DNA of 64,000 bases from an uncultured virus (IMG/VR IMGVR_UViG_3300035670_000196) (taxonomy: Duplodnaviria > Heunggongvirae > Uroviricota > Caudoviricetes). The notes beneath the pieces are model-generated. The model was not told the origin of the DNA. It saw nothing but the letters and a program-made list of their open reading frames with translations, and searched no databases. Below are positions 1-64,000 of the stretch, piece by piece (within the stretch, counting starts at the first letter, position 1; every line of letters begins with the position of its first letter). Both the position numbers and the translations under genes were made by a program. The stretch is from IMG/VR virus record IMGVR_UViG_3300035670_000196. One strand, written 5' to 3'.

Positions 1-1
1 A

Positions 2-586
2 CTTTGGCAAGGCGACACGCTATTAGAGCCACAGTTGGGGCCGCCAGAGGAGCACATACAGGTAAGTAGCACTGGTAAAGTTGGCAAGTCAGAGCGTTAT
101 CGAGTGTTATCCGGAGTCCCAAAACGCACCAGGGTTCGCGATTGGTTGATCAACCCACCGGAGCCACCATTTACGATTGCAATCGCTGAAAGTGGTCAGA
201 AGCATATCTTGTTCTTGGCTCAGACTGGCTACGATCGAGATAACTATCCGGTGCAATTTGAGATGGATTCTTTGGCGATCAATCGGGCTAAATTCGTCGC
301 ACTGCTTGAGGCCTATGAAGCATTGCTAAATTTAGCCTTTAGCAAAACTGAGATTGATACAGGCGAGTATCGGGCGGATCGATTAATAGCAAATTTTTAC
401 CAATGGCAATCGTTAGAGCAACAAATCGAACAATACCGATCGGGCGGTAAACCATCACGATTGCTACAATTGATTAGCTTTGTTGCGATCAAACCAAAAT
501 ATCAAGCATCTACTTTGCCTCAAAAAAAAGAACCACTAAGAGCAGAAAACAAACCTTTAGTACAAGCACAATTAAGTTTTTTCTAA
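2..586 (+). CDS. csf1: Type IV CRISPR-Cas large subunit Csf1 (Cas8-like), 5'-truncated by the window edge
   Basis: Frame is open from position 2 (LWQGDTLLEPQLG...). It contains the Csf1-like motif WLINPPEPPFTIAIAESGQKHILF and is coupled to cas6. The N-terminal Zn-finger part is not in the window. Confidence 0.75.
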   Translation, partial: LWQGDTLLEPQLGPPEEHIQVSSTGKVGKSERYRVLSGVPKRTRVRDWLINPPEPPFTIAIAESGQKHILFLAQTGYDRDNYPVQFEMDSLAINRAKFVALLEAYEALLNLAFSKTEIDTGEYRADRLIANFYQWQSLEQQIEQYRSGGKPSRLLQLISFVAIKPKYQASTLPQKKEPLRAENKPLVQAQLSFF

Positions 587-1206
587 TGAACGAATATGTT
601 GATTTGTATTGGAGCGTAATGGGCGATCGTTTACGCGCCGATCACAATTATCGGCTATATGCTGCACTAGTTGGCGCAAATCAAAATTTAAAACAAGTTT
701 CTTATCGAATGAATGCGATAAGCGGCGTAGCAGAAAATAATGGATGGATTAAGCTAAACCGTCAGTCTAAATTAATTATTCGCTGCAAATATCAAGACAT
801 ACATGAATTTGACGCATTAGATAATTCAATTATTCGTGTTGGACAAAATATTATTCAACTAACTTTCAACGGAGGACAAGCAGTTTCTTCAAAGCCTGCA
901 CTAACTGCAGATATTGTGACAATTAAATGTGAATTTAAATGTCGCGTTTCACCTTTTGAGTTTGGTGTTGCCGTAGGAAAACAATTGCAATCACTTGGAA
1001 TTCTTAGTATGCCAAGAATAGGTGATCGAAAATCTTTGCAAATCAAAGAATCAAATATTATTGGCTATGCAATTTTATTTGATTCTTTGACACCCGCAGA
1101 ATCACTTATGCTACAAGCCCATGGCATTGGCGGACGAGCAAAAATGGGATGTGGTTTTTTTGCAACGCTTTTTAAGGCAGGTTCGACTCCTGCGATCCGG
1201 GTTTAA
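586..1206 (+). CDS. cas6: Cas6 endoribonuclease (I-MYXAN/Cmx6-like)
   Basis: N-terminal VDL...G..L.ADHNY.LY.AL motif and C-terminal glycine-rich loop GIGGRAKMGCGFF. Start overlaps the csf1 stop (TAATG). Confidence 0.85.
   Translation: MNEYVDLYWSVMGDRLRADHNYRLYAALVGANQNLKQVSYRMNAISGVAENNGWIKLNRQSKLIIRCKYQDIHEFDALDNSIIRVGQNIIQLTFNGGQAVSSKPALTADIVTIKCEFKCRVSPFEFGVAVGKQLQSLGILSMPRIGDRKSLQIKESNIIGYAILFDSLTPAESLMLQAHGIGGRAKMGCGFFATLFKAGSTPAIRV
1175..1200 (+). repeat. 26-bp exact copy of the 3' half of the tRNA(CAT) gene (att-like direct repeat)
   Basis: AGGCAGGTTCGACTCCTGCGATCCGG occurs at 1175-1200 and 60756-60781. Confidence 0.95.
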
Positions 1207-1238
1207 ATTATTACCTGCCTGCTATTCAGCTACTGAAA

Positions 1239-1416: not shown

Positions 1417-1443
1417 GGAACAAGTTCATTCGCGAGACACATT

Positions 1444-1626: not shown

Positions 1627-1632
1627 CCTTTC

Positions 1633-1697: not shown

Positions 1698-1710
1698 ACA
1701 ACGTTTTAAA

Positions 1711-3382: not shown

Positions 3383-3413
3383 GGTAATTAAAAGACGATT
3401 ACACAAAAACACA

Positions 3414-34325: not shown

Positions 34326-34854
34326 CGGGGTGTTTTTCAGGGTTTCTTGACACGTCCGACGGGTGGTTTATTGCCCGCATTTCTGCCTCAACGTTGTAGC
34401 TCGGGGTAGTATCTTCGATGGCCCTGGTAAGTCGCCTCAGAAATGGCAGTGCTGGCTTAAGGGCGGAGACGACTGCAGTCACTATATTGTTGGTGTCTGA
34501 AATCTGCCGTTGCATCTGTCCTATTTCACGCCCTTGTTTACTTTGATACCTTCGCATGTCGTCATAGTCGGCTTTGAGATGATTGGCGAATGTGCGGGCG
34601 TCACCGATCAGGGAGTCCAAAGCATAGGCTTGGGATTGGATGTTTGCTAATTCTTGCCGTACGTCGCCTATAGCCGCGTCTGTAGCGGTTTCAGCGTGCT
34701 CTAGGTCATCGACCCGCTGGGTAAGCGAATTAACCCGTTTAGCTAGCGTAGATAGCAATGCAGCGACGTATTGCAATTTTGCCTCAGGGGTTAGTTCGTT
34801 GAAGGTCGTCGGGGGCGAGGGTAAAGGGGAGGCGGTGATTTGTGGAGGGTGCAT
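34315..34854 (-). CDS. Coiled-coil hypothetical protein
   Basis: 179-aa ORF with heptad pattern. Confidence 0.55.
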   Translation of the reverse strand: MHPPQITASPLPSPPTTFNELTPEAKLQYVAALLSTLAKRVNSLTQRVDDLEHAETATDAAIGDVRQELANIQSQAYALDSLIGDARTFANHLKADYDDMRRYQSKQGREIGQMQRQISDTNNIVTAVVSALKPALPFLRRLTRAIEDTTPSYNVEAEMRAINHPSDVSRNPEKHPAAY

Positions 34855-35066: not shown

Positions 35067-35996
35067 ATGTGCTTAAAAATCGAAATTCACGAACCCGGAT
35101 TAAGCGTTGGAACGATCGCAATTGCTAGCAGAATAAATGACGATTCAGTTATTACAATTGGTCGTCCTTTTTATGGGAGTAATTCCTCTCACATATCGAT
35201 ACGGACGGCTCCTAAATTAATCAGTCGTCAGCATTTATCAATGAGATTAAATGATGACGAATCTATTGATATTTTAGACGGGGCTTATTTAGCTGATGGA
35301 AGCTACCGTGCTAGCACTAATGGAGTGTGGGTAGATGGCAAGCGAATTCAGCCCCAGCAATGGCAGTTGCTGCTGATTGACGCGACGATTCGCCTAGGCA
35401 ATCCTAAGCAACCGGAGTTACTCGGATTTTTTATTAAGCTGGGCACGAATGAGACAGACCATGGCGCGTCTTTGTCTACGGTGTCATTTGATGCCAAGGA
35501 AGTTTGGGAAGCGACACGAAGAATGGTTACGGCTGGGTGTTTGTTGGTGCGGTGGGTGTCTCAATCGAAAACAGCTATCGTACTGGCCATTGATAGTCAG
35601 GCTGAAAGCGAGTTAGGGGCTCAGTCGGGGGAATTGGTTAGCGATGCTGGGGAATTTGCCCTAGAGTCGTTAATTGAGGCGGACGATCGAGTACAGCTGC
35701 AGCAGGCGGCAGAACTAGCGACCAAACAGGATGCGTCGGTGATTGGTACATATAAAGTGGGTGAGCGTGACGTGCGGATTAAATTTTCGCGCAGGTTTGT
35801 AAATGGCGAAGTATTGCTGTTGGGATTTGTGGAGGCTGTTGCCAGTCCAAAAAAGTTTCCGACTATTACTGGGGACGGGGGTTGGCCTGCCGTAGGGGCT
35901 CAAGTCGTTGAGCGGCTAAGCGACGATAATCCGATTTGGCTGGTCATCTTGGCTGTGCTGGCGTTAGCCGTGGTTCTGATTGTGAGCGGGCTGTGA
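35067..35996 (+). CDS. FHA-domain protein with PAS-like middle and C-terminal TM anchor
   Basis: FHA motifs IGR, ISRQH and STNGVWVDG; hydrophobic C-terminus. Confidence 0.8.
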   Translation: MCLKIEIHEPGLSVGTIAIASRINDDSVITIGRPFYGSNSSHISIRTAPKLISRQHLSMRLNDDESIDILDGAYLADGSYRASTNGVWVDGKRIQPQQWQLLLIDATIRLGNPKQPELLGFFIKLGTNETDHGASLSTVSFDAKEVWEATRRMVTAGCLLVRWVSQSKTAIVLAIDSQAESELGAQSGELVSDAGEFALESLIEADDRVQLQQAAELATKQDASVIGTYKVGERDVRIKFSRRFVNGEVLLLGFVEAVASPKKFPTITGDGGWPAVGAQVVERLSDDNPIWLVILAVLALAVVLIVSGL

Positions 35997-37549
35997 TTGA
36001 GTTATCTGAGGCATTACACATCCTAGACATGCTTCCGATCGCCTTGGGCATTTGGGAGCCAGAGGGTGACGATTTGCGATGTCTTTTTTACAATCGTGCT
36101 GCAGTTGACTCGACTGATGGGCTAAACCAGTCTGGGGTGTTACTGGGAGAGATGCTGCCTGGTCATCGCAAAATACAGGCTGATGGTCGTACTCAGTTAG
36201 ACCGGTATATTGCGATCGCCCAAGGTATAGAGCCAGGGGTATCTGGCCCATTAGAATATGCTGGTTTCGAGATCAGTACGTCGCAGTTTTGGCAATCAGC
36301 CCAACCCATTGAGCTACAGGGGCGACAGTGCATTGTGATTGCTTGGGCACCGTTGGCGCAGTTTGCAATCTGTGATCCAATGACAGGGCTATTTAGCCGC
36401 CAGTATTTGGAAATTGAGATCAACCGATCTATTCGCCAAGCGCCTAGTAGTTCATTTGTTCTTTTTTTGGACTTGGATAAATTTAAGCCAATTAATGACG
36501 TTCGGGGGCATGCTGCGGGCGATTATGTTTTGCGATGCGTGGCCCAACGGATTAAAGGTGCTCTGCGATCGACAGATACGGCTGCACGGTGGGGGGGGGA
36601 CGAGTTTGCTGTATTAGTTCGGGATGGTGATGGCGATAAGGTATACCAGTTTGCCGAACAGCTAAGAGAGGCGATCGAAAAGCCGGTCGATGGATTTGCT
36701 GTGACAGCATCAATAGGCTGTACTACCGTTGCTGATACCCTTGAAGCGACGATGGCGGTGGCTGATTGCTGTGTGTATCTAGCCAAAGAAAAAGGCGGAA
36801 ACAAGGTTGTGGTAAGCGATCCCGCTATCATTGAGCGGCACAATAGGCACCAGCGAATCTTAGAAGCCATCGAAAATGATGAGTTCCTGCTGTACTACCA
36901 GCCGATTGTGGGCTTAAGGTCGGGTAATGTGGCTGGATATGAAGCCTTAGTGAGATGGCAAGATGGGGATAAGTTAGTTTCGCCTGATGCGTTTGTTCCC
37001 GAACTTGAGAGAACTGGCGAGATCTGGCGATTGTGTAAAAAGGTGTTTGCCATGGCTGCAGCTCAGCAGCGGTTGATTGCTCCATTATGGGTATCGGTTA
37101 ATCTATCGCCTGTCACCCTAGACCGGCATGATTTTCGGGAAATTGCTAAACCTATGATTGGTGGGCATTTCGAGGTGCTGGAGTCTCGAAAGCTATCTGA
37201 TAATGCCGTCGCTGAGCTTGCGTTGCTGCGGGCGAATGGCAGCAAAATTGCCCTAGACGATTTTGGTGTAGGGCAGAGCCGGTATGCAGAGTTTGATCGG
37301 GTGGATTTGCTAAAGCTCGATAAATCCCTGGTTGACGGGGTAGAACAAGATATCCGAGTTGTTGCCGGAATCTTAGGAATGGCTCACTCTATAGGGTTGC
37401 AGGTCGTCGCTGAAGGGATTGAAACAAAAAAACAAGCCGACCTGCTACAACAGATCGGCTGTGATTTTGGACAAGGATGGTTTTTTGGCAAGCCAGTTCC
37501 ATTATGTGCCAATTCCAAAAAACTGTCACAAACTAGCTTGCAAACTTAA
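35993..37549 (+). CDS. GGDEF-EAL diguanylate cyclase/phosphodiesterase
   Basis: DPMTGL, DLDKFK.IND..GH..GD, RWGGDEF, YQPIV, YEALVRW, SVNLS, DDFG, KLDKS, VAEGIE and QGW. Probable GTG start in a GTGA overlap. Confidence 0.95.
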   Translation: MIELSEALHILDMLPIALGIWEPEGDDLRCLFYNRAAVDSTDGLNQSGVLLGEMLPGHRKIQADGRTQLDRYIAIAQGIEPGVSGPLEYAGFEISTSQFWQSAQPIELQGRQCIVIAWAPLAQFAICDPMTGLFSRQYLEIEINRSIRQAPSSSFVLFLDLDKFKPINDVRGHAAGDYVLRCVAQRIKGALRSTDTAARWGGDEFAVLVRDGDGDKVYQFAEQLREAIEKPVDGFAVTASIGCTTVADTLEATMAVADCCVYLAKEKGGNKVVVSDPAIIERHNRHQRILEAIENDEFLLYYQPIVGLRSGNVAGYEALVRWQDGDKLVSPDAFVPELERTGEIWRLCKKVFAMAAAQQRLIAPLWVSVNLSPVTLDRHDFREIAKPMIGGHFEVLESRKLSDNAVAELALLRANGSKIALDDFGVGQSRYAEFDRVDLLKLDKSLVDGVEQDIRVVAGILGMAHSIGLQVVAEGIETKKQADLLQQIGCDFGQGWFFGKPVPLCANSKKLSQTSLQT

Positions 37550-37565
37550 AATCGTGTGGAATACT
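37505..37565 (+). promoter_or_regulatory. Dispersed operator/promoter motif copy
   Basis: TGTGCCA-N12-TGTCACA ... GTGTGGAATACT. Confidence 0.6.
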
Positions 37566-37590
37566 AAAGAAAGTTTAGAGGACACACAAC

Positions 37591-46645: not shown

Positions 46646-47290
46646 ATGTATATCACCCCGAAGGAAGCACAAAAAAAATACGGGTATCACCCCAAGACTT
46701 TAGCCAATTGGGCGGACGACGGGAAAATACAGTTCACTAAATCACCTGGCGGACACAGGCGCTATGCGGTGGCTAGCTTAGAAGCCGTAGCAAGCGATCC
46801 AACAAAAGAGATTATCTGCTATGTCAGAGTTTCAACTAGATCCCAGAAAGACGATTTGCAAAATCAGCTTGATTATGTCAGTAGCCACTACCCACAGGCT
46901 GAGTGTATTACCGACTACGGCAGCGGACTTAATTTTAAGCGTAAACGATTCCTGAAGCTAATGGAACGAGTTTCAAGGCGGGAAGTCGCGACGATAGTCG
47001 TTGCTCACAAAGATCGCCTTTGCCGCTTCGGCTTCGATTTTGTCGAATGGTTCTGTCAATTGAACGGTTGTCAAATAAAGGTTCTGAACAATACCTACAA
47101 GCCACCGCATCAAGAGCTTATGGAAGATTTCATGGCGATAATGCACTGCTTTAGCAGCAAGCTGTATTTTTTGAGGCGATATGAAAAAGAAATTCGGAAT
47201 GAATCGGAAAAAGCGGAACAATGTGATATAATATGTCTATCCACTGAAGAAGGTCGAACTGATGGGGCTCAAGCGGAAGAAGGGATTTAA
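46646..47290 (+). CDS. tnpA: IS607 TnpA serine transposase
   Basis: N-terminal HTH (TL..W...G....PGGHRRY), YVRVST..QKDDL..Q, GSGLNFKRK, HKDRL.RFGF and ELMED. Confidence 0.95.
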   Translation: MYITPKEAQKKYGYHPKTLANWADDGKIQFTKSPGGHRRYAVASLEAVASDPTKEIICYVRVSTRSQKDDLQNQLDYVSSHYPQAECITDYGSGLNFKRKRFLKLMERVSRREVATIVVAHKDRLCRFGFDFVEWFCQLNGCQIKVLNNTYKPPHQELMEDFMAIMHCFSSKLYFLRRYEKEIRNESEKAEQCDIICLSTEEGRTDGAQAEEGI

Positions 47291-48569
47291 TATAGCGACT
47301 AAGTCCGTGAAGGCTAAATTGGTTCGGGAGGGCTTTGACCTGACTGAGACGAAAAGAGCTTTCAATGAAGTCGTTGAATTCTATTTTCTGCTTGTCTCAA
47401 CCCGCCCAGAAGGGATAGATATTCCCGTCTCTGATGATGGCGGATGGCGGTTTTACGAGATCCTGACGCAGGATAATGGTGAATTTCCTTTGCCATTTGC
47501 GGGTTTTCCGTCGTCCCTAAAGCGAGCTGCTATACGTCGTGCAATCGGCGCTTATAGCGCTTGGGATACGGCTTACCAGAAGTGGATAAATCGCCCTGAG
47601 AAGTACAAACATCATCGTCCCCCTGTTCAACCAAGAACGTTTTCCTTTTCCCCTCAGATGGATAAAGGAATGTGGAAAGACGATGACGGAGAATCTATCG
47701 TACTAAAAATATTGATGGGTTCCCAATGGAAGTGGATTAAATTCCGATACCATTCTCGGGAGATTGGCGACGATTGGGTAAAAGGATCTCCTAGCCTCAT
47801 CGTCAAGGGTAATAACGTTAGCATCGTTTTCCCTTTAGAGCGGTATGTCCCTGCTACTGGCGGATTGAAAACCGTTCTCAAAAAAGATATTGTTCGAGTC
47901 GCGTCAGTGGACGTTGACTTGGACGATCATCTTGCTATTGTTTCGATTCTAGAAAGCAAAGCTAGCGGAGAAGTGAGAGAACTGGCACGTCACTTTATCT
48001 CCACACCTCTGGTAAAGCTTAGGAAGCGCGATTTAGGTCGAGTTGCAATTAAGATGTCACAGACAAAAATCGTTTGTGAAGGCTTTGCTTCTAACCTATG
48101 GACTAAACTTCATAACCGTGAAGTTGAAATGGGTAGAGCAGCCGCTAGGCAAGTTGTAGATTTATCCGTTGGGTATGGTTGCGAAGTCATCGCCTTTGAG
48201 CACTTGACGAACCTTAAACCAGCCAAAGGTAAATATTCAAAGCGTTCAAACAAAAAACGAGCTTATTGGCTTAAGTCTCGTCTTTTTAGCGAAACCAATA
48301 GAGTCGCCTACAACGAGTTTGGCATCTTGACAACCCGTGTTTCTCCACGAAATACGTCTCGACTAGACCCTTGGGGTAACGCGGTAAACCGTGGCTCCAC
48401 ACCTACGGCAGAAGGCTATCATGCTGGTGCTGATTGGGTGAACGGGCCACGCGGTTACAAGGCCCATTCTGGGATCAACGCAGCGAGAAATATTGGGTTG
48501 AAAGCGATAGCAAGACACAGCACTAACCCGCCGACGCTTTACTTAGGTAAAGAAAAACCAGTCGGATAA
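47262..48569 (+). CDS. tnpB: TnpB RNA-guided nuclease with atypical RuvC-III
   Basis: SVDVD (RuvC-I), IAFEHL (RuvC-II), VSPRNTS and INAARNIG. Confidence 0.85.
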   Translation: MGLKRKKGFNIATKSVKAKLVREGFDLTETKRAFNEVVEFYFLLVSTRPEGIDIPVSDDGGWRFYEILTQDNGEFPLPFAGFPSSLKRAAIRRAIGAYSAWDTAYQKWINRPEKYKHHRPPVQPRTFSFSPQMDKGMWKDDDGESIVLKILMGSQWKWIKFRYHSREIGDDWVKGSPSLIVKGNNVSIVFPLERYVPATGGLKTVLKKDIVRVASVDVDLDDHLAIVSILESKASGEVRELARHFISTPLVKLRKRDLGRVAIKMSQTKIVCEGFASNLWTKLHNREVEMGRAAARQVVDLSVGYGCEVIAFEHLTNLKPAKGKYSKRSNKKRAYWLKSRLFSETNRVAYNEFGILTTRVSPRNTSRLDPWGNAVNRGSTPTAEGYHAGADWVNGPRGYKAHSGINAARNIGLKAIARHSTNPPTLYLGKEKPVG

Positions 48570-55383: not shown

Positions 55384-55386
55384 AAA

Positions 55387-55450
55387 AAGTGTCACACTAT
55401 CCCACACAAATTCTATTTTGTGTGGGATAGTGAAAAGGTAGCTAAGAGAG
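55387..55450 (+). promoter_or_regulatory. Dispersed motif copy containing a 16-bp perfect inverted repeat
   Basis: CACTATCCCACACAAA-N6-TTTGTGTGGGATAGTG (55395-55432). Confidence 0.65.
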
Positions 55451-55454
55451 TGAC

Positions 55455-56105
55455 ATGAAACTACTTGATTTATTTTGTGGTGCTGGTGGTGCCGCCGAGG
55501 GGTACCGTCGATCAGGGTTTGACGTCACCGGCGTAGATATTTCGCCGCAACCACGCTACCCGTTCATTTTTCATCAATGCGATTGGCGCGAGTACTTTGA
55601 TCAGCATTGGTACGAGTACGACGTAATTCACGCATCCCCCCCGTGTCAGGGATACAGCGTATCCCGGCATATCCACAAAGGCTCTAAAGCCCCGTTGCTG
55701 ATCGACACTGTTCGAGAAGCGCTAAAAGCCACCGACAAGCCATATATAATCGAAAATGTGGCAGGGGCTAGAAAACACATGATTGCGCCAATCACCTTGC
55801 GCGGCAATATGTTTGGGCTTCGAGTAATTCGGGATAGATTGTTTGAAAGCAACATTTTGCTGCTGGCACCCAAATTAATTCCCGCTAAGGGCGGGACTAA
55901 CAGTCATCGCGGCATGAGTACCGGAGGCGAATATATCTGTGTTGCAGGGAATAATTTTTATGTTGAGGAAGCAAAAGCGGCGATGGGTATCGATTGGATG
56001 ATCGGCAAAGAACTGGCTCAAGCCATTCCTCCCGCGTACACCGAATGGATCGGCAGTCAGGTGAAAAATCAACTCCGCATTAAAGCTGCTGTGCCAATAA
56101 AATAA
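55455..56105 (+). CDS. DNA (cytosine-5) methyltransferase, compact type
   Basis: LDLFCGAGG, ASPPCQ, IENV and R.RLF motifs. Confidence 0.9.
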   Translation: MKLLDLFCGAGGAAEGYRRSGFDVTGVDISPQPRYPFIFHQCDWREYFDQHWYEYDVIHASPPCQGYSVSRHIHKGSKAPLLIDTVREALKATDKPYIIENVAGARKHMIAPITLRGNMFGLRVIRDRLFESNILLLAPKLIPAKGGTNSHRGMSTGGEYICVAGNNFYVEEAKAAMGIDWMIGKELAQAIPPAYTEWIGSQVKNQLRIKAAVPIK

Positions 56106-56169
56106 AGTGTCACACTATTGCATGCAAATTATAATTTGTGTGGGATAGTGAAAATGTAGTCAAGAGAGA
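56090..56169 (+). promoter_or_regulatory. Dispersed operator/promoter motif copy
   Basis: TGTGCCA-N11-TGTCACA ... TGTGTGGGATAGTGAAAATGTAG.CAAGAGAG. Confidence 0.65.
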
Positions 56170-56762: not shown

Positions 56763-59700
56763 ATGATTTCTGCAAGTCTCCACGTGGATCAAAGCGTATT
56801 TAGCGGAAAGTTTGATTACAATGCGCAGTGCCCGGTTTGTGATAAAAAGGGCTGCTCAGTCCGGGAAGGCGGCGGCGTCCATTGCACGACACACCGCAGC
56901 GGCAATAAGGGCGAAACCCTAAACGGGTATGAGTTTGTAGGGGAAGATCGCAGCGGGTTAGGACTGTGGCGGCCCTATGTCGAAAAAGGTAATCGCCAAA
57001 CATCGACATACCGGCTGCAGACGACGGCAAGGACGCTAGAACCAGTCGCACAAATAGACTTAGCCAAACGGGATAGCCAGTTGCGGGCATGGGCTGAGGA
57101 ATCGCCTATTACTGGCGAGCAACGACTATTCCTGAAAAACCGAGGGGTTAGCCGGGAGCAGGTGATGCAAGCGGCCAACGACGAAGCTATTTTTTGGAAT
57201 ATCCAATACGGGGAAGACGGATTTGACAGCACAGGGCTACCCGGTAACTGGACTGAGGACGGCAAATATCAAGGCGTAGAGGGCCTTGCCATCGCTTGCC
57301 GCCAGCGACTAGAACCTAATGGCCCATGGCATATCCTCGGTGCTCAGATCCGCCCCAGCAAGATCAGAGATGGCGGAGGTAAATACTTATGGCTCAGCAG
57401 AGAGGAAGCTTCAGCACGGATCAGCCAATGGGGCGAGTTACCGATCACCGTCCATGAAACCACCGGCACAACGGGGCACTTGACTCTATGCGAGGGAACG
57501 CTCAAACCGTGGCTAATTGCCCAGAGAGCCGACATCCATAGCATTGACTTAGGCGTAGCGATCGTTGGCTGTGCTGGTTCGGCGTGGGCATCAACATCAT
57601 GGACTCAGATCGAGCATCAATGCACTAAAGTGTACGGGGTAAAAGATATTCACTTAGCCCTTGACGCTGGCGCGGTTCAAAACCGTAACGTTTGGGGTGG
57701 AGTCAGACAGCTGGCCCAACGATGCAAAAGAGCAGGCTTAACTTTAAAAATAATCTGGTATGGCCAACTCGAAAAAACTAACGGTGACCTTGACGAACTG
57801 ACGGAAGTCACTCCATACCAGTTGCTAACCGTTAACGAAGTCGAGGCCCAATTCTGCCAGCCTGACGTAATCCCGGCGTCAGCGCTGCTACTCAAGCCGT
57901 CACCTGGGTTTGTCGACGATTACGGGTATCTGCCCGATCACGCTGACATCCTATTACCGGCGATCTCAAAAACGCGATTGACAGCCATCCGCGCTAACAA
58001 AGGGACTGGAAAAACCCAGCTAATTAAAAAACTGGTAACTCAAGCTATCGAGCGAAAACAGCGTGCAATTATCTTCACCCACCGCCTCGCTCTTGGCGCT
58101 GCCCAAGGTGCACTGCTGGGCCTGCCCGTCAAAACTGAGGTCAGAGAATACGGACGGGGCGAAGGGTTTGTTATTACCGTTGACTCCGCTCACCCTGGCT
58201 CTGGGATGCGGTACAGCGCTGACCATGACCTACAACACGATGGGGGGGGCACTTTAGTCATCATTGACGAGTGCGATCAGGTTTTCGATCACATCGCCCA
58301 CGGCAAGACAGAAATTAAGCGGCACCGCCAAGCCGTGATTGACGAAATCAGCGAAACCCTAGCAGGTGCCCGCAACGTTGTCCTGCTCAGTGCCGACATT
58401 ACCGACTGTCACGTTGCCCTAACTCAACAGGCAATGGGCATCACCGACTCGCTAAACATCGTCAATACCACTACACGTAAACTAGGCAATGTAACGGTTC
58501 ATACAAACCCGTTCTCCGTACGATTTGAAGCCGAGCAAGCACTAGAACGGAATGAACGCATTCTAATAAAAGTCAGCGGCCAAAAATCAGACTCAAATCA
58601 CGGTACGTCTGCACTGCATGCTTACCTGAAAGCATTATACCCAGAGAAGAAGGGTGTCATTTTTGACGGAAACACACTTAAAGATCCGTCTAATCCTGAC
58701 ACTTTTATTAATGGTATAAATGTACTGCAGTGGCTCAGCCATCCTGATCCCGAAGAAAGGCTACGGCGACAAGAGGAGTATTTTGCTCAGTACGATTGGG
58801 TGATTTTTAACAACGCTTGTGGTACCGGAGTATCGTTTGAGACCCCCCTATTCCACGGTTTTTATCAGATCGAAACTGGGGTAGGGTCAATCCGTGACGC
58901 GGCCCAGGCGACGGCAAGGCTAAGACCTCATTTTTACGAAGACGCCGAGGGTAACCGTCAGCCGCTTCAGCGCCACATCTACTGTGCCCCGATTGGCCTT
59001 CCTCAGCTGCGATACGGCAATGGGGCGACGGCTCCCAATAAACTTGCAGCGGGCGAAGATAAGGCATGGGAAAAGCTCGTAAGCCAAATACAGCAAGTCG
59101 GGGGGGCTGATTGGTTGCCATCTTCACCGCTCGAATACTCGTCACCACGGGCTCAAGCGTGGTTGGGGTATGCCATTAACCGGGCTGCTGAATTTAACGC
59201 TGAATCGCTCAACTATGCCCAGGAATTTTGGAAGCAATTACAAGTCGAGGGCTACAGCCTCGGCGACTATAACGGCGATTGGAATCAGATAGGCGACAGT
59301 GAGCAGAAGGCCTATAAAGCCGGGTGCACATCGGCAAGGGATCTGCTACACAGCAAGGCATTAGAACAGATAGCTGCTGAGCCCATGGATGGGGCAGATG
59401 TGGCGAAACTAGCCCAGCAACGGGAGTTGACCCCAAAGGAGCATAGGCAGCTAAAAAAGGGCCGAACCATGGAACGATACGGTCTCGACGAAGAGACCGT
59501 AGATGTCGCCGTCCTTGACGCTGAGCACAACGGCATTTATCACAAACTGATGCTGCGATACCTAGCTGAACAGCCCAAAGCCGTGGCTCAGGAACGCGAT
59601 AAGGTGACAGCATGGCATGAACTAAACGAAGGGTCTCCTTGGGGGCGTGATCTTGCCAAGCGGGCTTATTCACCGAGACTGGCTCTCCTAAGAGAACTAG

Positions 59701-60644
59701 GGGCGATTGCCTTACTAGAATCGGCTAAGAACGGAGAAAAACTTTACAGTGCCCACCCTGATGTTTTGGCGGTAGCAGCTGCAGCCTTGAAGCGACGGGA
59801 CGATGTTAAAGACATCCTAGGGCTGACGGTTGGGGTTGAGTCTTATAACAAACGAACGGCTCAAATGGAAATCAAGGTTGATCGCCCGATCGTAGTCGCT
59901 CAGAATTTATTTGAGTTGTTAGGGTACGGACTGTCCCGAATTAAAGAACGGGTTCGGAATGAGCAAGGTAAGCGGCATTGGCAGTTTGAGCTGACCGATA
60001 GCAAACCGGCGGCGATTGACTGGGTAAAATTCGGGGAAATTCAGGAGAAAATTATGAAAGAACGGGCTGAAAAAGTGGATGGATCACCGGTCAATTTAGT
60101 GCTGAGAGAGGCCAAAAATGACCCGCTGCCTACTAACAGTGAAAATGAGCTAGAACCTAATGATGACAAGGGTTTCGATGAAAAACAGGCCGGGACACTA
60201 ACCTCCATAGATCTAATAGAAACCGAGTTAGTAGGCAGTAAAAATGGCGATACCCGCATCCCTGATTCTGGGGGGGCTGCTGCTGGGGCTGATCTGAGGG
60301 TCGGTGACCGGGTGATTTACACGGGTGAGGCTCCAAATAGTGCTAGATCTGCCATTCTCCGAGCCATAATGCAGCCGTTACCAGGGGTGATTGTCTACCA
60401 GTTATCGGCTACCGAGGACGGGGCTGCGTGGGGAGCGAGACAGCATGAGGTGTTACTGGTGGATACTGACGAACCATTGGCAATACAGGTGATGCGGATG
60501 ATGCAAGCGGTACGGACGCCCGACGACTGGTCTAAGCTTGGCCGTCAGTACGATGCTGAGACATGGCAAGCTGCTTGGTCTGAGCTAATTGTGGAGGATG
60601 AACAAAAGGCTTTGTTTATCCAGCAAATGATGATGGCGGCTTGA
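56763..60644 (+). CDS. Primase-helicase replication protein, CyRepA1/DUF3854-like
   Basis: N-terminal CPVC...C Zn finger; TOPRIM-like KYLW / CEG.LKP / DAG / DLDE; helicase motifs KGTGKT, HR..L, IIDECDQ and TGVSF. Confidence 0.8.
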   Translation: MISASLHVDQSVFSGKFDYNAQCPVCDKKGCSVREGGGVHCTTHRSGNKGETLNGYEFVGEDRSGLGLWRPYVEKGNRQTSTYRLQTTARTLEPVAQIDLAKRDSQLRAWAEESPITGEQRLFLKNRGVSREQVMQAANDEAIFWNIQYGEDGFDSTGLPGNWTEDGKYQGVEGLAIACRQRLEPNGPWHILGAQIRPSKIRDGGGKYLWLSREEASARISQWGELPITVHETTGTTGHLTLCEGTLKPWLIAQRADIHSIDLGVAIVGCAGSAWASTSWTQIEHQCTKVYGVKDIHLALDAGAVQNRNVWGGVRQLAQRCKRAGLTLKIIWYGQLEKTNGDLDELTEVTPYQLLTVNEVEAQFCQPDVIPASALLLKPSPGFVDDYGYLPDHADILLPAISKTRLTAIRANKGTGKTQLIKKLVTQAIERKQRAIIFTHRLALGAAQGALLGLPVKTEVREYGRGEGFVITVDSAHPGSGMRYSADHDLQHDGGGTLVIIDECDQVFDHIAHGKTEIKRHRQAVIDEISETLAGARNVVLLSADITDCHVALTQQAMGITDSLNIVNTTTRKLGNVTVHTNPFSVRFEAEQALERNERILIKVSGQKSDSNHGTSALHAYLKALYPEKKGVIFDGNTLKDPSNPDTFINGINVLQWLSHPDPEERLRRQEEYFAQYDWVIFNNACGTGVSFETPLFHGFYQIETGVGSIRDAAQATARLRPHFYEDAEGNRQPLQRHIYCAPIGLPQLRYGNGATAPNKLAAGEDKAWEKLVSQIQQVGGADWLPSSPLEYSSPRAQAWLGYAINRAAEFNAESLNYAQEFWKQLQVEGYSLGDYNGDWNQIGDSEQKAYKAGCTSARDLLHSKALEQIAAEPMDGADVAKLAQQRELTPKEHRQLKKGRTMERYGLDEETVDVAVLDAEHNGIYHKLMLRYLAEQPKAVAQERDKVTAWHELNEGSPWGRDLAKRAYSPRLALLRELGAIALLESAKNGEKLYSAHPDVLAVAAAALKRRDDVKDILGLTVGVESYNKRTAQMEIKVDRPIVVAQNLFELLGYGLSRIKERVRNEQGKRHWQFELTDSKPAAIDWVKFGEIQEKIMKERAEKVDGSPVNLVLREAKNDPLPTNSENELEPNDDKGFDEKQAGTLTSIDLIETELVGSKNGDTRIPDSGGAAAGADLRVGDRVIYTGEAPNSARSAILRAIMQPLPGVIVYQLSATEDGAAWGARQHEVLLVDTDEPLAIQVMRMMQAVRTPDDWSKLGRQYDAETWQAAWSELIVEDEQKALFIQQMMMAA
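60126..60238. repeat. Intragenic iteron module, inverted copy of 33418-33530
   Basis: CTGCCTACTAAC...GTTAGTAGGCAG. 60190-60222 is the exact 33-bp reverse complement of 33434-33466. Confidence 0.85.
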
Positions 60645-60709
60645 TAAAATATAGGGGTTGTTTATCAGGAGACTTCTGCTCTCACTACCGCCCCACTGCG
60701 GGGTTTCTT

Positions 60710-60782
60710 CCGGGTCTGGCCGAGCGGAAAGGCAGCAAACTCATAATTTGCCATTAGGCAGGTTCGACTCCTGCGATCCGGA
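60710..60782 (+). tRNA. tRNA with CAT anticodon (elongator Met or Ile2), CCA not encoded
   Basis: Acceptor stem CCGGGTC/GATCCGG, D arm GCC..GG..GGC, anticodon arm GCAAA-CTCATAA-TTTGC, T arm GCAGG-TTCGACT-CCTGC, discriminator A. Confidence 0.9.
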
Positions 60783-60839
60783 TTGCTTTGTAACCAATGC
60801 TTTTTGTGTAAAAATAAAAAAACTCCTATGGAGATCGGA

Positions 60840-61388
60840 ATGTTATACGGAATACGTGGATGTACAGATCCAGCGACGGCTTATATTAGTTCGTTGACTT
60901 ATTGGGTTTTTTCGTGCAGAGATCGCAACAAGACTCCGGCGCAGGGGCTTGAAAAATGGAGCTATCTTGGCTCCGCAATTCAGCAAGCTGCGGTGACGGC
61001 GCAATCGATCGAGCAGTATCAGGCGAATTTGGCCGATCGACTAAAGGCGAAATCTCCGGTATTGAGCCGTTACGCAAAAATGCTGGTGCATGAAGAAAAC
61101 CAGCGAGTGATTTTGTTTGGAACTAAAACAGAAGCTGGTTTAACTGATTTACAAGAATTTAGCAGTCACCAAGCATTACCAATTTATGCTAGTCCCGCTG
61201 ATGTTTTGCAGGATTTGCTAGCGCAAGGGATACGCGAGTCAGAAATCTTGAAGATTGCCAAACCCACACGATTGGGCGGCAAGCCTTTTGTTGTGCAAAT
61301 GTACTGCCAAGTGGCAGATCAGGTGTTTGGGTGGCAACCGCCCGCTGAGGAAGATGAAACGATCGATATCGAAGTGGGGGTCGCCTAA
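60840..61388 (+). CDS. Type IV small subunit (Cas11-like)
   Basis: Helical protein MLYG...Y.VF..RD....W......AA..A directly upstream of csf2; RBS GGAG. Confidence 0.6.
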   Translation: MLYGIRGCTDPATAYISSLTYWVFSCRDRNKTPAQGLEKWSYLGSAIQQAAVTAQSIEQYQANLADRLKAKSPVLSRYAKMLVHEENQRVILFGTKTEAGLTDLQEFSSHQALPIYASPADVLQDLLAQGIRESEILKIAKPTRLGGKPFVVQMYCQVADQVFGWQPPAEEDETIDIEVGVA

Positions 61389-62605
61389 TGTCTGGAATTG
61401 CTGAATACAAGCCTTTTGAGGGGCGGCGGCAAATTAAACTTCACGTCATTTTTGACTTGCAACAGCCGTTGTCTCACATTTCGGAGACAACGGGAAATGA
61501 ATCGCTACTGAAGACAACATCGATGGTCGCGATTGATGGCGAGAAAGCGCAGGTGCCGATCTATTCCGGGAATGCGCAACGGAATGGCAACCTGGGGCGT
61601 CGGACGGGTATCGCATCGTTTCTGGATGCGCTGGATGTGGCGGTGAACAAATCGACTCATCAAACGCTATACAGCGGCGGATACATTGAGGGCAGTACGA
61701 TTAATGATTTTGAGGCAGAAGAACGCATCCGAAAACTGTTGCCAAATCTTTCTTTGTTGGGTGGAGCGATCCCGCCGGAAACGCTGGGAATGCCAAAAGG
61801 AAAATCCCAGATGATAGAAGGGCGGCTGAATATCGGTGATGCTTATTTGGTTTGCTACGAATCAGTCCCCTACATCTACGAGCAATGTCCGGCGCTGTTG
61901 CCGTGGGAAGCGATGGAGTCGATCGATCTACTGATGGCCCGTCGCCGCAAGTTTATTGATCTGCGCTACGGCTTAGCCGCTGGCAAGGTCGATCGGATGG
62001 CGGTAAATAAGGCTTGGCAAGCATTAAAGGCAACCGAGGCGGAGCACTTGCCGATTATTCGGCATCATTGCAAGCCGTCTTCCGAATATTGGGAGTATCG
62101 GGAGTCGGTGCGAGTTCCTAGCTATAAGCAGTCTGAGCTATCGCGGCATCTTGCGGGTAGTAAGCCCAAACTGCTAAAAGGTGATGAGGAAAAGAAAAAA
62201 GGAGACAAAAAAGAAGCTGGGCGACAAATGATTTCGGGTGCTTGGGTAATTCAGCGTGGCGCTCAGCTTTACTCTCTCTGGTGTAGCCGTGGACAAGGAA
62301 TTACGCCTCTTGAGGAAGGTGCCTTGGTTAATACGCTGCTGGAGTTTGCTAAGCAGCCCTACCTTGGCGGTAGGGCTAATGCAGGATGTGGCCTAGTGTC
62401 AATATCGATCCGCTGCGAAGCTGATGGGCAGTCGGGGGATTACCTCTCGCTGTCCCAATCGGCGCAGGTGATCAGCGATCGGGCAGCAAATTGCCACCAA
62501 CGCTATCAAGATATGGTGCGCATCTACCAAGAGCACATTGCCGAAATCAAGGCGGGTGGCACTGTCGAGTCAGCCGATGCCTTTAATTTATTGGGGGTAA
62601 GCTGA
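61388..62605 (+). CDS. csf2: Type IV backbone protein Csf2 (Cas7-like)
   Basis: PLSH, VPIYSGNA.R, LYSGG, SLLGG, MIEGRL.IG...LVCYE, QMI and LGGRANAGCG motifs. Confidence 0.85.
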   Translation: MSGIAEYKPFEGRRQIKLHVIFDLQQPLSHISETTGNESLLKTTSMVAIDGEKAQVPIYSGNAQRNGNLGRRTGIASFLDALDVAVNKSTHQTLYSGGYIEGSTINDFEAEERIRKLLPNLSLLGGAIPPETLGMPKGKSQMIEGRLNIGDAYLVCYESVPYIYEQCPALLPWEAMESIDLLMARRRKFIDLRYGLAAGKVDRMAVNKAWQALKATEAEHLPIIRHHCKPSSEYWEYRESVRVPSYKQSELSRHLAGSKPKLLKGDEEKKKGDKKEAGRQMISGAWVIQRGAQLYSLWCSRGQGITPLEEGALVNTLLEFAKQPYLGGRANAGCGLVSISIRCEADGQSGDYLSLSQSAQVISDRAANCHQRYQDMVRIYQEHIAEIKAGGTVESADAFNLLGVS

Positions 62606-63312
62606 TGCAGCCACTACGAGTAACCGCCCACTTAGCCAATAAATTGGCGGTGAGTGATGATTGGTCGCCGTCGCTTGATGCACTCCTAATTAAGCTACTA
62701 CTGGATGAGCGGGGATTATCCAGTAGTAACCCGATGCTGGAAGATGTCGTTCGAAACCAGCCTGTGATTGACGCCAATATGCCGATCTACAAAGGTGAAA
62801 TTAAAGGGGAATGGTACTGGCAGACCTCAAGCCCTTGTTATTTGTGGGATGCCGATGAAGTGGAAACCATCTACAAACGATGGGATCAACAAGAGCGTAA
62901 CTTGAATTGGCAAGGCAAGCGGCGCAACTGGAGCACATCCGAGAATAATACAAAGTCCTGGACAATCCTTATTTCGGAGCGATCGACCCCGCGTATCGAC
63001 TGGTATTGCATCGGTGATGCGCTGGAGATCCAGCGGTTGTTAACTCTGTCTGATAGATTGGCTAAAAAACGTCGGACACAGGTCTATCGATGGGACGTCG
63101 AGGCAATTGATCAAGATTGGCATTTATGGCGTGATCAAGAAATAATGCGGCCAATGCCAGTGGATTTAATTGATACGCCACCTCATGATTTTGCAATTCG
63201 GCGATGGGCATGGCGGCCACCGACGCATTTGCCTGAGAATGTGGCTAAGTGCCTGATGCCTGTAACAACAGCAAAGCGAGTTAAATCAGTTTATGTGTGG
63301 GGAACGGAGTGA
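62605..63312 (+). CDS. csf3: Type IV Csf3 (Cas5-like)
   Basis: MQPLRVTA.L, LDALL, WYCIGD..EI..LL, KKR, RPMP and RPP motifs. Confidence 0.8.
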   Translation: MQPLRVTAHLANKLAVSDDWSPSLDALLIKLLLDERGLSSSNPMLEDVVRNQPVIDANMPIYKGEIKGEWYWQTSSPCYLWDADEVETIYKRWDQQERNLNWQGKRRNWSTSENNTKSWTILISERSTPRIDWYCIGDALEIQRLLTLSDRLAKKRRTQVYRWDVEAIDQDWHLWRDQEIMRPMPVDLIDTPPHDFAIRRWAWRPPTHLPENVAKCLMPVTTAKRVKSVYVWGTE

Positions 63313-64000
63313 TGGATCTATTGGAGCGCGAGGCGTTTTCGGTTTATGCGCAGTTGCCAAAATTTAAGCGCAAAGTTAATCAGGCTTTAGTTGTAATTCG
63401 TGAAGCATTAAAAATTGGGCCTGCCTACGTTGCTGTTAGTTGGGGAAAAGATTCGGTGGTGATGCTGCACTTGTGTCAGCAGGTGCAGCCGGATATTTTG
63501 GCAATCAGCTTTAGCCATCCAGAACGAAGCATGATTTCTAATTATGAAGAGGTAATCGATCAATATCGCCAACGATTTGGCCTGAATTTAAAAGATATTG
63601 CACTAGCTGGCGACCATGTCCCGGCCAAAGTCGAACAGGCTAAGCTTTGGGATACTTGGCCTGTTGGTTTTATTGGATTGAGAAAAGAAGAGTGCGATCG
63701 GAGATCTATGGCATTAATTAAGTATGGATTGCTGCATCAATACCAGTCTGGGAGTAGATCTACTAGTTGGCGTTGCTGCCCGGTTGGTTGGTTTGGTTGG
63801 CGTGATATTTGGGCTTACATTTGTGCAAATAACCTGCCGTACTTGTCAATTTACGATCAGCTTTCCAGAGACCGAGGAAGAACTACAGATCATTTATCAA
63901 AAACTATGGACAAAGCATGGCAGCAACGCCGATTTGAAGAGATCAAGTTGGTTGCACCAGAATATGCAAAATATTTGCAGGAGAATCATGCAGAGAATTT
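63312..64000 (+). CDS. cysH: CysH/PAPS-reductase-like protein (type IV-B associated), runs off the window end; not in the ORF track
   Basis: My translation gives MDLLEREAF...YVAVSWGKDSVVMLHL...FIGLRKEE...PVGWFGWRDIWAYI..NNLPY..IYD. Starts in a TGATG overlap with csf3. Confidence 0.85.
   Translation, partial: MDLLEREAFSVYAQLPKFKRKVNQALVVIREALKIGPAYVAVSWGKDSVVMLHLCQQVQPDILAISFSHPERSMISNYEEVIDQYRQRFGLNLKDIALAGDHVPAKVEQAKLWDTWPVGFIGLRKEECDRRSMALIKYGLLHQYQSGSRSTSWRCCPVGWFGWRDIWAYICANNLPYLSIYDQLSRDRGRTTDHLSKTMDKAWQQRRFEEIKLVAPEYAKYLQENHAEN

What the first reader, a model, noticed from the sequence alone, without database searches (positions are those of the whole stretch)
60840..64000. Array-less type IV-B-like Cas effector operon with Cas6 on a cyanobacterial phage, split across the two window ends
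Seen: cas11-like, csf2, csf3 and cysH-like genes are translationally coupled at the right end, with cysH running off. A 5'-truncated csf1 and cas6 lie at 2-1206 on the same strand. I see no cas1, cas2, dinG or CRISPR array. Known: type IV-B systems are defined by CysH and usually lack both an array and Cas6; their function is unresolved. Inference: the ends join into one operon (cas11-csf2-csf3-cysH-csf1-cas6) on a circular genome. The I-MYXAN-like Cas6 suggests the phage processes and captures host crRNAs (anti-CRISPR sponge) or uses a non-canonical guide.
Basis: partly seen in the sequence, partly recalled or inferred. Interest (0 to 1): 0.9.

Follow-up and report, generated by a model that had tools for sequence, protein, structure and literature searches.

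The report
Type IV-B CRISPR cassette in cyanophage
A circular 64.6-kb tailed phage, probably of a cyanobacterium, carries an intact array-less type IV-B CRISPR protein operon with its own Cas6, sitting as a 5-kb insert at the end of the phage's tRNA-Met gene; this is a further example of a known but still function-less system.

Summary
Six + strand genes match type IV Cas11, Csf2/Cas7, Csf3/Cas5, a CysH-like PP-loop enzyme, Csf1 and a type I-B/MYXAN-family Cas6. All four junctions in view overlap by one base.

The two window ends do join. A 32.9-kb contig from a public run bridges them across 566 unseen bases, giving a 64,566-bp circle.

I found no CRISPR array, cas1, cas2, cas3 or dinG in the 64 kb.

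New here: the operon lies between the phage's tRNA-Met gene and an exact 26-nt copy of that tRNA's 3' end. That copy forms the last codons of cas6. This looks like a site-specific insertion scar, but no integrase is in view.

24 IMG/VR viral contigs and a Gloeobacter plasmid carry related cassettes in unrelated backbones. 9 have Cas6 but no Csf1; 8 have Csf1 but no Cas6. Four of the 24 carry cyanobacterial type I-D-like solitary repeats next to cas11.

Type IV-B with Cas6 is already in print as a rare exception, and this scan has noted cyanophage cases on other DNA. The function is still unknown, and the host-crRNA capture idea is untested.

The parts
60709..60783 (+). tRNA-Met (anticodon CAT), intact. 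By its paired first base pair and A/U-rich anticodon stem it looks like an elongator or Ile2-type tRNA rather than an initiator (the criteria are recalled, not tested).
   Evidence: ARAGORN. Rfam tRNA RF00005 scores 49.6 bits in a local scan. The whole-window Rfam run at gathering threshold listed nothing; I cannot explain this discrepancy.
60756..60781 (+). Left copy of the 26-nt direct repeat. It covers the T-arm and the 3' acceptor strand of tRNA-Met and stops one base before the discriminator. I read it as attL-like.
   Evidence: Exact 26-mer shared with 1175-1200, read. Start-to-start distance on the bridging contig is 4985 nt.
60840..61388 (+). cas11-like small subunit, 182 aa
   Evidence: PADLOC typeIV_Cas11, 10 of 10 family members. 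Start fixed by the L001 homologue. The AlphaFold2 model was too poor to use.
61388..62605 (+). csf2 (type IV Cas7), 405 aa
   Evidence: PADLOC Csf2_0_IV 4.5e-37. A profile of 24 homologues hits the PDB Csf2 chains 8rc2 (1.8e-5) and 7jhy (6.3e-3).
62605..63312 (+). csf3 (type IV Cas5), 235 aa
   Evidence: PADLOC Csf3_0_IV 4.2e-28
63312..64000 (+). cysH-like PP-loop enzyme. It runs off the window. By comparison with relatives of 218-231 aa it should end within a few codons.
   Evidence: Pfam PAPS_reduct 7.4e-12; start codon read; lengths of relatives
2..586 (+). csf1 (type IV large subunit). About 72 N-terminal residues, including the CxxC...CxxC zinc finger, lie in the unseen gap.
   Evidence: PADLOC Csf1_0_IV 5e-20. 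Full-length homologues of 260-277 aa, and a 222-aa form identical to the window over all 194 residues.
586..1206 (+). cas6, type I-B/MYXAN (Cmx6) family, 206 aa. The last 9 residues are encoded by the 26-nt repeat.
   Evidence: Pfam PF09559 8.8e-40; TIGR02807 above its cut-off. A family profile hits the PDB type I-B Cas6 chain 8fcj_B at 7.2e-31. C-terminal tail shown. GC 0.377 and GC3 0.238, against 0.518 and 0.546 in csf2.
1175..1200 (+). Right copy of the 26-nt direct repeat (attR-like), followed by G instead of the tRNA's A

Best explanation
Shown:
- This is a complete, selectively maintained subtype IV-B-type Csf effector operon: cas11, csf2, csf3, cysH-like, about 340 unread bases, then csf1. 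A type I-B/MYXAN-family cas6 is added at the end.
- It sits on a circular 64,566-bp tailed phage genome.
- The operon occupies a 4,959-nt segment between the intact tRNA-Met gene of the phage and an exact 26-nt copy of that tRNA's 3' end.

Inferred:
- The segment entered the phage, or can be exchanged, by site-specific recombination at the tRNA 3' end. The recombinase would be supplied in trans or has been lost (my odds about 0.6).
- The ancestral phage tRNA was followed by window 1201 onwards.
- cas6 joined the module separately, because it is a strong compositional outlier.

Inferred mechanism (my odds about 0.3, the most likely single reading):
- The phage has no repeat of its own. Its Cas6 would therefore cut repeat-bearing RNA made by the host, i.e. 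cyanobacterial repeats of the type I-D/I-B/III kind that end in ATTGAAAC.
- Csf1, Csf3, several Csf2 and Cas11 would assemble on the product.
- Having no nuclease, the complex would either withhold crRNAs from the host effectors or bind DNA without cutting it, as type IV-A does.
- The CysH-like ATP-using enzyme would act as its accessory.
For: Identity: family matches.

Intact and under selection: one-base overlaps at the four junctions in view. Against the L001 homologue, dN is 0.12 over 180 cas11 codons and 0.09 over the first 124 csf2 codons, with dS saturated. 27 Csf2 homologues were found, 18 of them at 64-79% identity, and 72 columns are invariant in the 24 aligned.

Circle: X1 record 3 covers 60193-64000 as its bases 1-3808. 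It carries the second repeat copy at bases 5549-5574, followed by the letters of window 1201-1230. The gap is therefore 566 nt. X2, another sample of the same study, shows the same loose end, and one of its contigs runs 4,460 nt past the window end. The window's own contig is 64,693 nt, which equals 64,566 + 127.

Insertion:
- An exact 26-mer occurs twice in 64 kb, and one copy is precisely the 3' part of a tRNA.
- Of the 16 other Cas6 sequences aligned, 8 end one residue after the GCGVF motif and none shares the window's tail.
- L001, the closest relative in hand, has an excisionase-like HTH gene upstream of cas11 instead of a tRNA.
- 24 IMG/VR loci carry the cassette, but beyond the six cas genes only 3 window ORFs found a match there, each in one locus.
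- cas6 is a GC3 outlier.

Mechanism:
- No repeat was found in the 64 kb.
- The Cas6 family profile matches a solved type I-B Cas6 at 7.2e-31.
- In relatives, CRISPR-like repeats occur only where Cas6 is not seen. L004 and L010 have a 37-nt unit of the same build as the Microcystis type I-D repeat (PMC4428289, Table 3 passages). It ends 58 nt upstream of cas11, the position the tRNA 3' end takes in the window.
Against: - No integrase was found. None of the 59 ORFs scanned with PHROGs or the 22 scanned with Pfam is a tyrosine recombinase. The only recombinase is an IS607-like serine enzyme at 46646-47287.
- No cassette-free form of this phage was seen. There was no such loose end in four runs, no relative of the phage's 1,293-aa replication protein (56763-60644) in IMG/VR and no other copy of the 26-mer there.
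- Under the insertion model the ancestral tRNA would have had G, not A, at the discriminator position, which is odd for a tRNA-Met.
- The overall composition of the cassette is not unusual. 13 of 110 equally sized phage windows lie at least as far from the genome's tetranucleotide profile.
- Nothing here shows what RNA the complex binds. The only solved IV-B complex assembled on non-CRISPR RNA (PMC7937560, abstract seen in the listing).
- About 340 nt of the operon are unread and could hold a repeat.
- The repeat-versus-Cas6 complementarity rests on 4 of 24 loci, which are 2 lineages. It was found with one motif search within at most 10 kb of csf2.
Confidence: 0.55

Rival explanations
1. The complex works without CRISPR guides. 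As in the Mycobacterium IV-B complex, Csf2 and Cas11 would assemble on ordinary cellular or phage RNA. Cas6 would serve as an RNA-binding end subunit rather than a repeat-specific nuclease. The biological effect would come from the CysH-like enzyme, for example AMPylation or a nucleotide signal.
For: The published IV-B complex bound heterogeneous non-CRISPR RNA (PMC7937560, abstract in the listing; PMC8175902, passages). In 9 IMG/VR loci Cas6 stands where Csf1 stands in 8 others, and no locus has both. In L021 none of the 10 ORFs in and around the operon is Csf1-like. This suggests a structural role in the complex. The PP-loop motif is kept in both groups. Variable small enzymes, such as a cupin, sit next to cysH in L018 and in the Gloeobacter plasmid.
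Against: The Cas6 is a close family member of repeat-cutting enzymes and keeps the glycine-rich loop. Some relatives keep CRISPR-like repeats beside cas11.
Confidence: 0.3
2. The system has its own guide, which I could not see: a solitary repeat or a mini-array in the roughly 340 unread bases between cysH and csf1.
For: The gap is real and unread. Relatives L004/L010 and L003/L023 have solitary repeats or a two-repeat unit near the operon. A viral IV-B locus with a mini-array is in print (PMC10848311, passages). A weak 23-nt tandem repeat starts at 63952 and runs off the window.
Against: In the relatives the repeats lie upstream of cas11, not between cysH and csf1. In L018 and in plasmid pGMOR1 that slot holds a small protein gene of 119-131 aa, annotated as a cupin in pGMOR1. 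That size would fill 340 nt. The Gloeobacter locus has no repeats within 6 kb.
Confidence: 0.12
3. The 26-nt duplication is not an integrase scar. It would be a by-product of recombination between two phages, or between a phage and a host island, that each had a tRNA-Met next to the cassette.
For: No integrase is in view. L003 and L023 have a tRNA-Met, 81% identical over 59 nt, about 700 nt downstream of csf1, so this tRNA does travel near such cassettes. In L003 the cassette is flanked by a different 25-nt imperfect repeat.
Against: Identity ends exactly at the last paired base of the acceptor stem, and the order 'whole tRNA - cargo - 3' fragment' is the classic product of integration into a tRNA 3' end (established knowledge, recalled). 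A second crossover would need homology that is not visible to the right of 1200.
Confidence: 0.25
4. The window is a linear piece of a host replicon with a prophage between two halves of a cas locus, so the ends are not adjacent.
For: None beyond the layout of the window. L002 shows that the order csf1-cas11 can occur.
Against: Contigs from two samples bridge the ends. The contig length fits a circle plus a 127-nt overlap.
Confidence: 0.02

Closest known systems
Subtype IV-B CRISPR-Cas (csf1, cas11, csf2, csf3 plus cysH-like), e.g. the Mycobacterium sp. JS623 Csf complex, PDB 7JHY (PMC7937560; PMC8175902; PMC7038947)
   Same: Same gene set. No adaptation genes, no DinG, no nuclease and no array in view. 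Carried by a mobile element. Function unknown in print up to a 2026 paper (PMC13676074, passages).
   Different: It has a cas6. The gene order puts csf1 last. It is on a tailed phage rather than a plasmid. Sequence similarity to 7JHY Csf2 is very weak (profile E 6.3e-3).
The rare IV-B loci with Cas6 ('only 12 instances', Pinilla-Redondo et al. 2019, PMC7038947, passages), and the unannotated locus on Gloeobacter morelensis plasmid pGMOR1
   Same: pGMOR1 has cas11, csf2, a MYXAN-type cas6, csf3, a PAPS-reductase-family gene, a cupin and csf1, so it has both Csf1 and Cas6 as here. No repeats lie within 6 kb.
   Different: In pGMOR1 cas6 sits between csf2 and csf3. Csf2 is only 32% identical. It is a plasmid, not a phage. 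I did not see the supplement that lists the 12 instances, so I cannot say whether any of them is cyanobacterial or viral.
Virus-borne type IV components in print: Fuxivirus of Bathyarchaeia (PMC10848311, passages) and the Csf3-like protein of cyanophage CrV-01T (PMC12481020, passages)
   Same: Type IV effector genes on viral genomes, discussed as counter-defence or competition between mobile elements.
   Different: Fuxivirus has a mini-array and no Cas6 (the word Cas6 does not occur in its text). In CrV-01T only a Csf3 fold was recognised. The window's Csf2 finds nothing in 50,697 deposited phage records at E <= 1e-5.
Integrase-less cargo cassettes bounded by a tRNA gene and a copy of its 3' end: cis-mobilisable elements, and decayed or tandem tRNA islands
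   Same: Whole tRNA, then cargo, then an exact 3' fragment, with no recombinase inside.
   Different: The target tRNA gene belongs to a phage, and the cargo is nothing but a cas operon.
Solitary repeat units / RNA anti-CRISPRs of phages (mentioned in PMC11656645, abstract and passages)
   Same: Relatives L004/L010 and L003/L023 carry single CRISPR-like repeats of cyanobacterial build.
   Different: Here the repeats lie next to a type IV-B operon, and the window itself has none.

Membership tests
[quoted passage not shown] | Csf2 (Cas7), Csf3 (Cas5) and Csf1 (large subunit) encoded together | tested here: met
   PADLOC 4.5e-37, 4.2e-28 and 5e-20. The NCBIfam csf1/csf2/csf3 models match only below their cut-offs.
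Subtype IV-B | cas11-like small-subunit gene in the operon | tested here: met
   typeIV_Cas11 matched by 10 of 10 family members, best 1e-14; the window protein scores 3.6e-5. Structural confirmation failed (pLDDT 49).
Subtype IV-B | Adjacent cysH-like (PAPS-reductase-family, PP-loop) gene | tested here: met
   PF01507 7.4e-12. It overlaps the csf3 stop by one base.
Subtype IV-B | No DinG or RecD helicase in the locus and no adaptation genes | tested here: met
   None in the operon. The 566-nt gap is too small for one. A RecD/Dda-like helicase lies 5.4 kb upstream, among the phage's DNA-replication and methyltransferase genes.
Subtype IV-B | No associated CRISPR array | tested here: inconclusive
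   None in the 64,000 bases read. About 340 nt inside the operon are unread.
Subtype IV-B | No Cas6 | tested here: not met
   cas6 is present and coupled to csf1. The literature allows this as a rare exception, so I file the locus as IV-B with an added Cas6.
Subtype IV-B | Csf2 falls in the IV-B clade of the Cas7 tree | not tested
   I had no reference sequences for a tree. Profile matches to the IV-A, IV-C and IV-B chains in the PDB are all weak and do not tell them apart.
Cas6 (type I-B/MYXAN, Cmx6 family) | Match to the family model above its curated cut-off, and the C-terminal glycine-rich loop | tested here: met
   TIGR02807 scores 120.3 bits against a cut-off of 98.85. PDB chain 8fcj_B at 7.2e-31. 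The GIGGRAKMGCGFF loop aligns. Cleavage activity is not testable here.
tRNA-targeted integrative element | Whole tRNA at one end and an exact copy of its 3' part at the other | tested here: met
tRNA-targeted integrative element | Own integrase, or an observed empty site or circular form | tested here: not met
   No integrase. No empty-site reads or contigs. No relatives of the phage backbone to compare.

The most novel reading that the evidence does not exclude
Phage type IV-B modules exploit the host's CRISPR memory, and nature has built the two halves of the trick separately.

- Relatives without Cas6 carry a host-type (I-D-like) solitary repeat 58 nt upstream of cas11. They would depend on the host Cas6.
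- Phages like this one carry their own I-B-family Cas6 and no repeat. They would cut host pre-crRNA themselves and load it into a nuclease-free Csf complex.
- That complex would then starve the host effectors of guides, or sit on matching DNA and shield or silence it.
- The whole device would move between phages as a 5-kb cassette that targets a phage tRNA-Met gene.
Probability: 0.2. Interest if true: 0.85.

Novelty: new member of a known kind. Interest (0 to 1): 0.45.

Why it matters
Type IV-B is the CRISPR subtype whose job is still unknown. Reviews and primary papers up to 2026 say so.

This phage and its relatives offer three natural versions of one module: Csf1 only, sometimes with host-like solitary repeats; Cas6 only; and both. 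These could be compared in ordinary pull-down and cleavage experiments.

The tRNA-flanked layout suggests that the module is traded between phages as a unit. This would explain why related operons sit in unrelated backbones.

None of this changes the classification. IV-B with Cas6 and type IV genes on phages are both in print, and this scan has met cyanophage cases before on other DNA.

Tried and rejected
- No whole genome is held for this window.
- The window end and the operon were not found in deposited phages or by exact match in IMG/VR.
- A single-protein Csf2 search found nothing in IMG/VR or in the species genomes. The profile search found nothing in the species genomes and one short metagenome contig, L001.
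- The AlphaFold2 model of Cas11 from a 10-sequence alignment had mean pLDDT 49, so I ran no fold search. A profile of that family found no meaningful PDB sequence match.
- dN/dS could not be given as a ratio because dS was saturated.
- Search for host-type repeats in the window: GGATTGAAA[CG] occurs twice. One copy (37416) is the coding motif VAEGIET of a GGDEF-EAL protein. The other (3888, intergenic) has no upstream hairpin. The 13-mer with up to 2 mismatches is no more frequent than chance, 4 found against 3.98 expected. I count neither as a repeat.
- The L004 repeat matches no Rfam family. My calling it CRISPR-like rests on its build compared with the published Microcystis repeat.
- I looked for the phage backbone without the cassette. 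The phage's 1,293-aa replication protein has no relatives in IMG/VR, and the 26-mer has no exact match there.
- I could not search cyanobacterial genomes for the 26-mer. The plasmid locus gives no genome handle.
- No RNA holder is listed among the sequencing runs.
- The idea that the many 4.5-6.8-kb contigs of close homologues are free small elements could not be checked, because the look-up of encoding contigs is closed. In X2 the contigs run through both repeat copies without a break.
- No complex prediction was run.


Full report
**What is there**

The right end of the window holds four + strand genes and the left end holds two more.

| Gene | Coordinates | Best evidence |
|---|---|---|
| cas11-like | 60840-61388 | PADLOC typeIV_Cas11 3.6e-5 |
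| csf2 (Cas7) | 61388-62605 | PADLOC type IV Cas7 4.5e-37 |
| csf3 (Cas5) | 62605-63312 | PADLOC type IV Cas5 4.2e-28 |
| cysH-like | 63312 to beyond 64000 | Pfam PAPS_reduct 7.4e-12 |
| csf1 | before 2 to 586 | PADLOC type IV Cas8/Csf1 5e-20 |
| cas6 | 586-1206 | Pfam PF09559 8.8e-40; NCBIfam cas6_cmx6 120.3 bits, above its cut-off of 98.85 |

The NCBIfam csf models match only below their cut-offs.

The small first protein is a weak Cas11 match on its own. But all 10 of 10 aligned members of its family hit the same type IV Cas11 models, best 1e-14. Its start is the ATG at 60840, not the upstream TTG, because an 81%-identical homologue in L001 starts there. An AlphaFold2 model of it was too poor to use (pLDDT 49).

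The CysH-like protein keeps a PP-loop motif, SWGKDS (read).

Every junction in view is a one-base stop/start overlap.

The genes are under purifying selection. Against L001, dN is 0.09-0.12 while dS is saturated.

**The replicon**

The other 59.5 kb encode a tailed phage. Large terminase, portal, protease, major head protein, tape measure, a Holliday-junction resolvase, methyltransferases, a Dda/RecD-like helicase and a 1,293-aa replication protein are all present.

A cyanobacterial host is likely but not shown:
- The HIP1 motif GCGATCGC occurs 8 times against 1.1 expected. That HIP1 marks cyanobacteria is recalled knowledge.
- The best portal match is a Synechococcus phage, at only 29% identity.
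- One Cas6 homologue is labelled by its source as coming from a Cyanobacteriota MAG.
- A related operon sits on a Gloeobacter plasmid.

**Do the ends join? Yes.**

The window's Csf2 is on record on a contig of 64,693 nt, so 693 nt lie outside the window.

Four public runs of one study hold the region. I laid their contigs on 58000-64000.
- A 32,863-nt contig of run X1 covers 60193-64000 with its bases 1-3808.
- The same contig matches the 26-nt repeat again at its bases 5549-5574.
- It then continues with the letters of window 1201-1230.
- Window base 1 is therefore contig base 4375. The gap is 566 nt and the circle is 64,566 nt.
- The source contig is exactly 127 nt longer. That is what a circular contig with a k-mer overlap would give; this last step is my inference.

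X1 may be the sample the window came from, so it is not independent support. X2 is another sample of the same study. It shows the same loose end, and one of its contigs runs 4,460 nt past the window end.

Relatives have the same gene order, cysH then csf1 or cas6.

**What the gap can hold**

- Full-length Csf1 homologues of 260-277 aa have 72 residues, including a CxxC...CxxC zinc finger, before the point where the window begins. A 222-aa form identical to the window over all 194 residues extends it by 28 residues.
- The CysH-like proteins of the closest IMG/VR group are 218-231 aa and end about where the window ends.
- That leaves about 340 nt unexplained.
- In L018 a 119-aa ORF sits directly after cysH. 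In plasmid pGMOR1 a 131-aa ORF, annotated as a cupin, sits directly after cysH and before csf1. A similar small gene is my guess for the gap.
- A short repeat unit cannot be excluded. An integrase, cas1 or a helicase cannot fit.

**No array and no other cas genes in view**

Three repeat searches found no interspaced array. 60 further ORFs gave no Cas match at E <= 1e-4. The only exception is the phage helicase, whose fifth-best PADLOC hit is typeIV_RecD. It lies 5.4 kb away, among the phage's DNA-replication and methyltransferase genes.

**The unnoticed feature: a tRNA and a copy of its end bracket the operon**

- A tRNA-Met (CAT) lies at 60709-60783, 56 nt upstream of cas11 (Rfam 49.6 bits).
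- Its last 26 nt before the discriminator (60756-60781) recur exactly at 1175-1200.
- On the circle the order is: whole tRNA, 4,959 nt of cas operon, 3' fragment.
- The second copy encodes the last nine residues of Cas6. Of 16 aligned homologues, 8 stop one residue after the GCGVF motif and none shares this tail. The junction therefore lies right at the natural end of cas6.
- This is the classic picture of integration into a tRNA 3' end (recalled knowledge).

Points against a simple insertion story:
- No integrase is in view.
- I found no cassette-free form.
- The model implies an ancestral tRNA with G at the discriminator position.

Points for modular movement:
- L001 has a different upstream neighbour, an excisionase-like HTH gene.
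- Beyond the cas genes, only 3 window ORFs found a match in the 24 IMG/VR loci, each in one locus.
- cas6 is a compositional outlier inside the cassette. Its GC3 is 0.24 against 0.55 for csf2.
- In L003 the cassette is flanked by a different 25-nt imperfect repeat.
- L003 and L023 have a related tRNA-Met about 700 nt downstream of csf1.

**Relatives**

The 24 IMG/VR contigs have Csf2 at 36-39% identity. By tblastn they fall into three sets:
- 8 have csf1 and no cas6.
- 9 have cas6 and no csf1. In L021, cysH abuts cas6, and none of the 10 ORFs tested in and around the operon is Csf1-like.
- 7 are cut off too early to tell.
- None has both.

The window has both, as does plasmid pGMOR1, in another order. 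By matching contig lengths, some closer metagenomic relatives probably have both too. That last point is weak inference.

Four of the 24 loci (L003 and L023; L004 and L010; two lineages) carry CRISPR-like units ending in GGATTGAAA[CG]. None of them is a cas6-bearing locus.

In L004 a 37-nt unit occurs at 6591 and 9355, with a 5'-diverged copy at 6693 and a degenerate one at 7365. The copy at 9355 ends 58 nt upstream of cas11.

This unit has the same length and build as the Microcystis type I-D repeat printed in PMC4428289 (Table 3 passages). It matches no Rfam family.

**What is known**

[quoted passage not shown] It occurs mostly on plasmids and sometimes on prophages (PMC7038947, passages). 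I did not open that paper's supplement.
- Its function is called unknown in 2021, 2024 and 2026 texts (PMC8175902, PMC11656645 and PMC13676074, passages).
- Viral IV-B is in print for an archaeal virus (PMC10848311).
- A Csf3 fold has been recognised in cyanophage CrV-01T (PMC12481020).
- My searches for 'cyanophage' together with 'type IV-B' found no paper in the library. The CrV-01T paper is the nearest I could find.
- This scan has already reported cyanophage IV-B operons on other DNA, including one with Cas6 and a cupin.

**Verdict**

The observation and the circular join are confirmed. The classification is IV-B with an added Cas6, a further member of a known kind. The tRNA-bounded cassette and the repeat-or-Cas6 pattern among relatives are the useful additions. 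The mechanism is open.

My best single guess is capture of host-made repeat RNA by the phage Cas6 and a nuclease-free Csf complex, at about 0.3. A guide-free RNP is about equally likely.

Noticed in passing
window 1320-1890: About nine copies of AAAGATCGGG spaced 20-35 nt apart, plus one at 1322, lie just downstream of the cassette and of a 73-aa ORF. They look like iterons or a protein-binding array, not CRISPR repeats.
   Followed up: no
window 33421-34336 and 60193-60241: Three copies of a unit of about 120 nt occur with irregular spacing (554 and 241 nt). A short related piece lies inside the 3' end of the 1,293-aa replication gene (56763-60644). The assembly graphs of runs X1 and X2 branch at 60193-60238.
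   Followed up: no
window 1370-1420, 37519-37569, 55385-55435, 56103-56153: A 51-nt motif (AAAGTGTCACA ... TGTGGGATA) is repeated before several genes, probably a phage promoter or operator. One copy follows the cassette directly.
   Followed up: no
window 35936-37549: The phage encodes a GGDEF-EAL protein (cyclic-di-GMP turnover), preceded by an FHA-domain protein at 35067-35996.
   Followed up: no
window 46646-48569: A small serine recombinase of IS607 type (transposase family, PHROG 4.2e-51) is followed by a 435-aa ORF with no family match. It is probably an insertion sequence inside the phage.
   Followed up: no
window 63952-64000: A weak tandem repeat (period 23, 2.1 copies, 76% matches) lies at the end of cysH and runs off the window into the unread gap.
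   Followed up: no
L004 6591-6729: Two repeat copies enclose a 72-nt 'spacer', about twice the usual length. Its end (GGTGCAAATCCTAGC) looks like a tRNA T-arm, but ARAGORN finds no tRNA in L004.
   Followed up: partly
L005-L025, 10-40 nt upstream of cas11: The motif CCGTAGATGTACGAG is conserved just before the cas11 start in both the csf1 group and the cas6 group of IMG/VR relatives. It is absent from the window and from L001, L002, L003 and L023.
   Followed up: no
L008 11230-12250 and 13672-14786; L005 11199-11576; L007 10175-10735: Extra genes are inserted between csf2 and csf3, or between cysH and csf1, in some relatives. The operon therefore tolerates insertions at its gene junctions.
   Followed up: no
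window, whole: The whole-window Rfam run at gathering threshold listed no match. Yet the tRNA scores 49.6 bits, above the family's threshold of 29, in a local run.
   Followed up: partly
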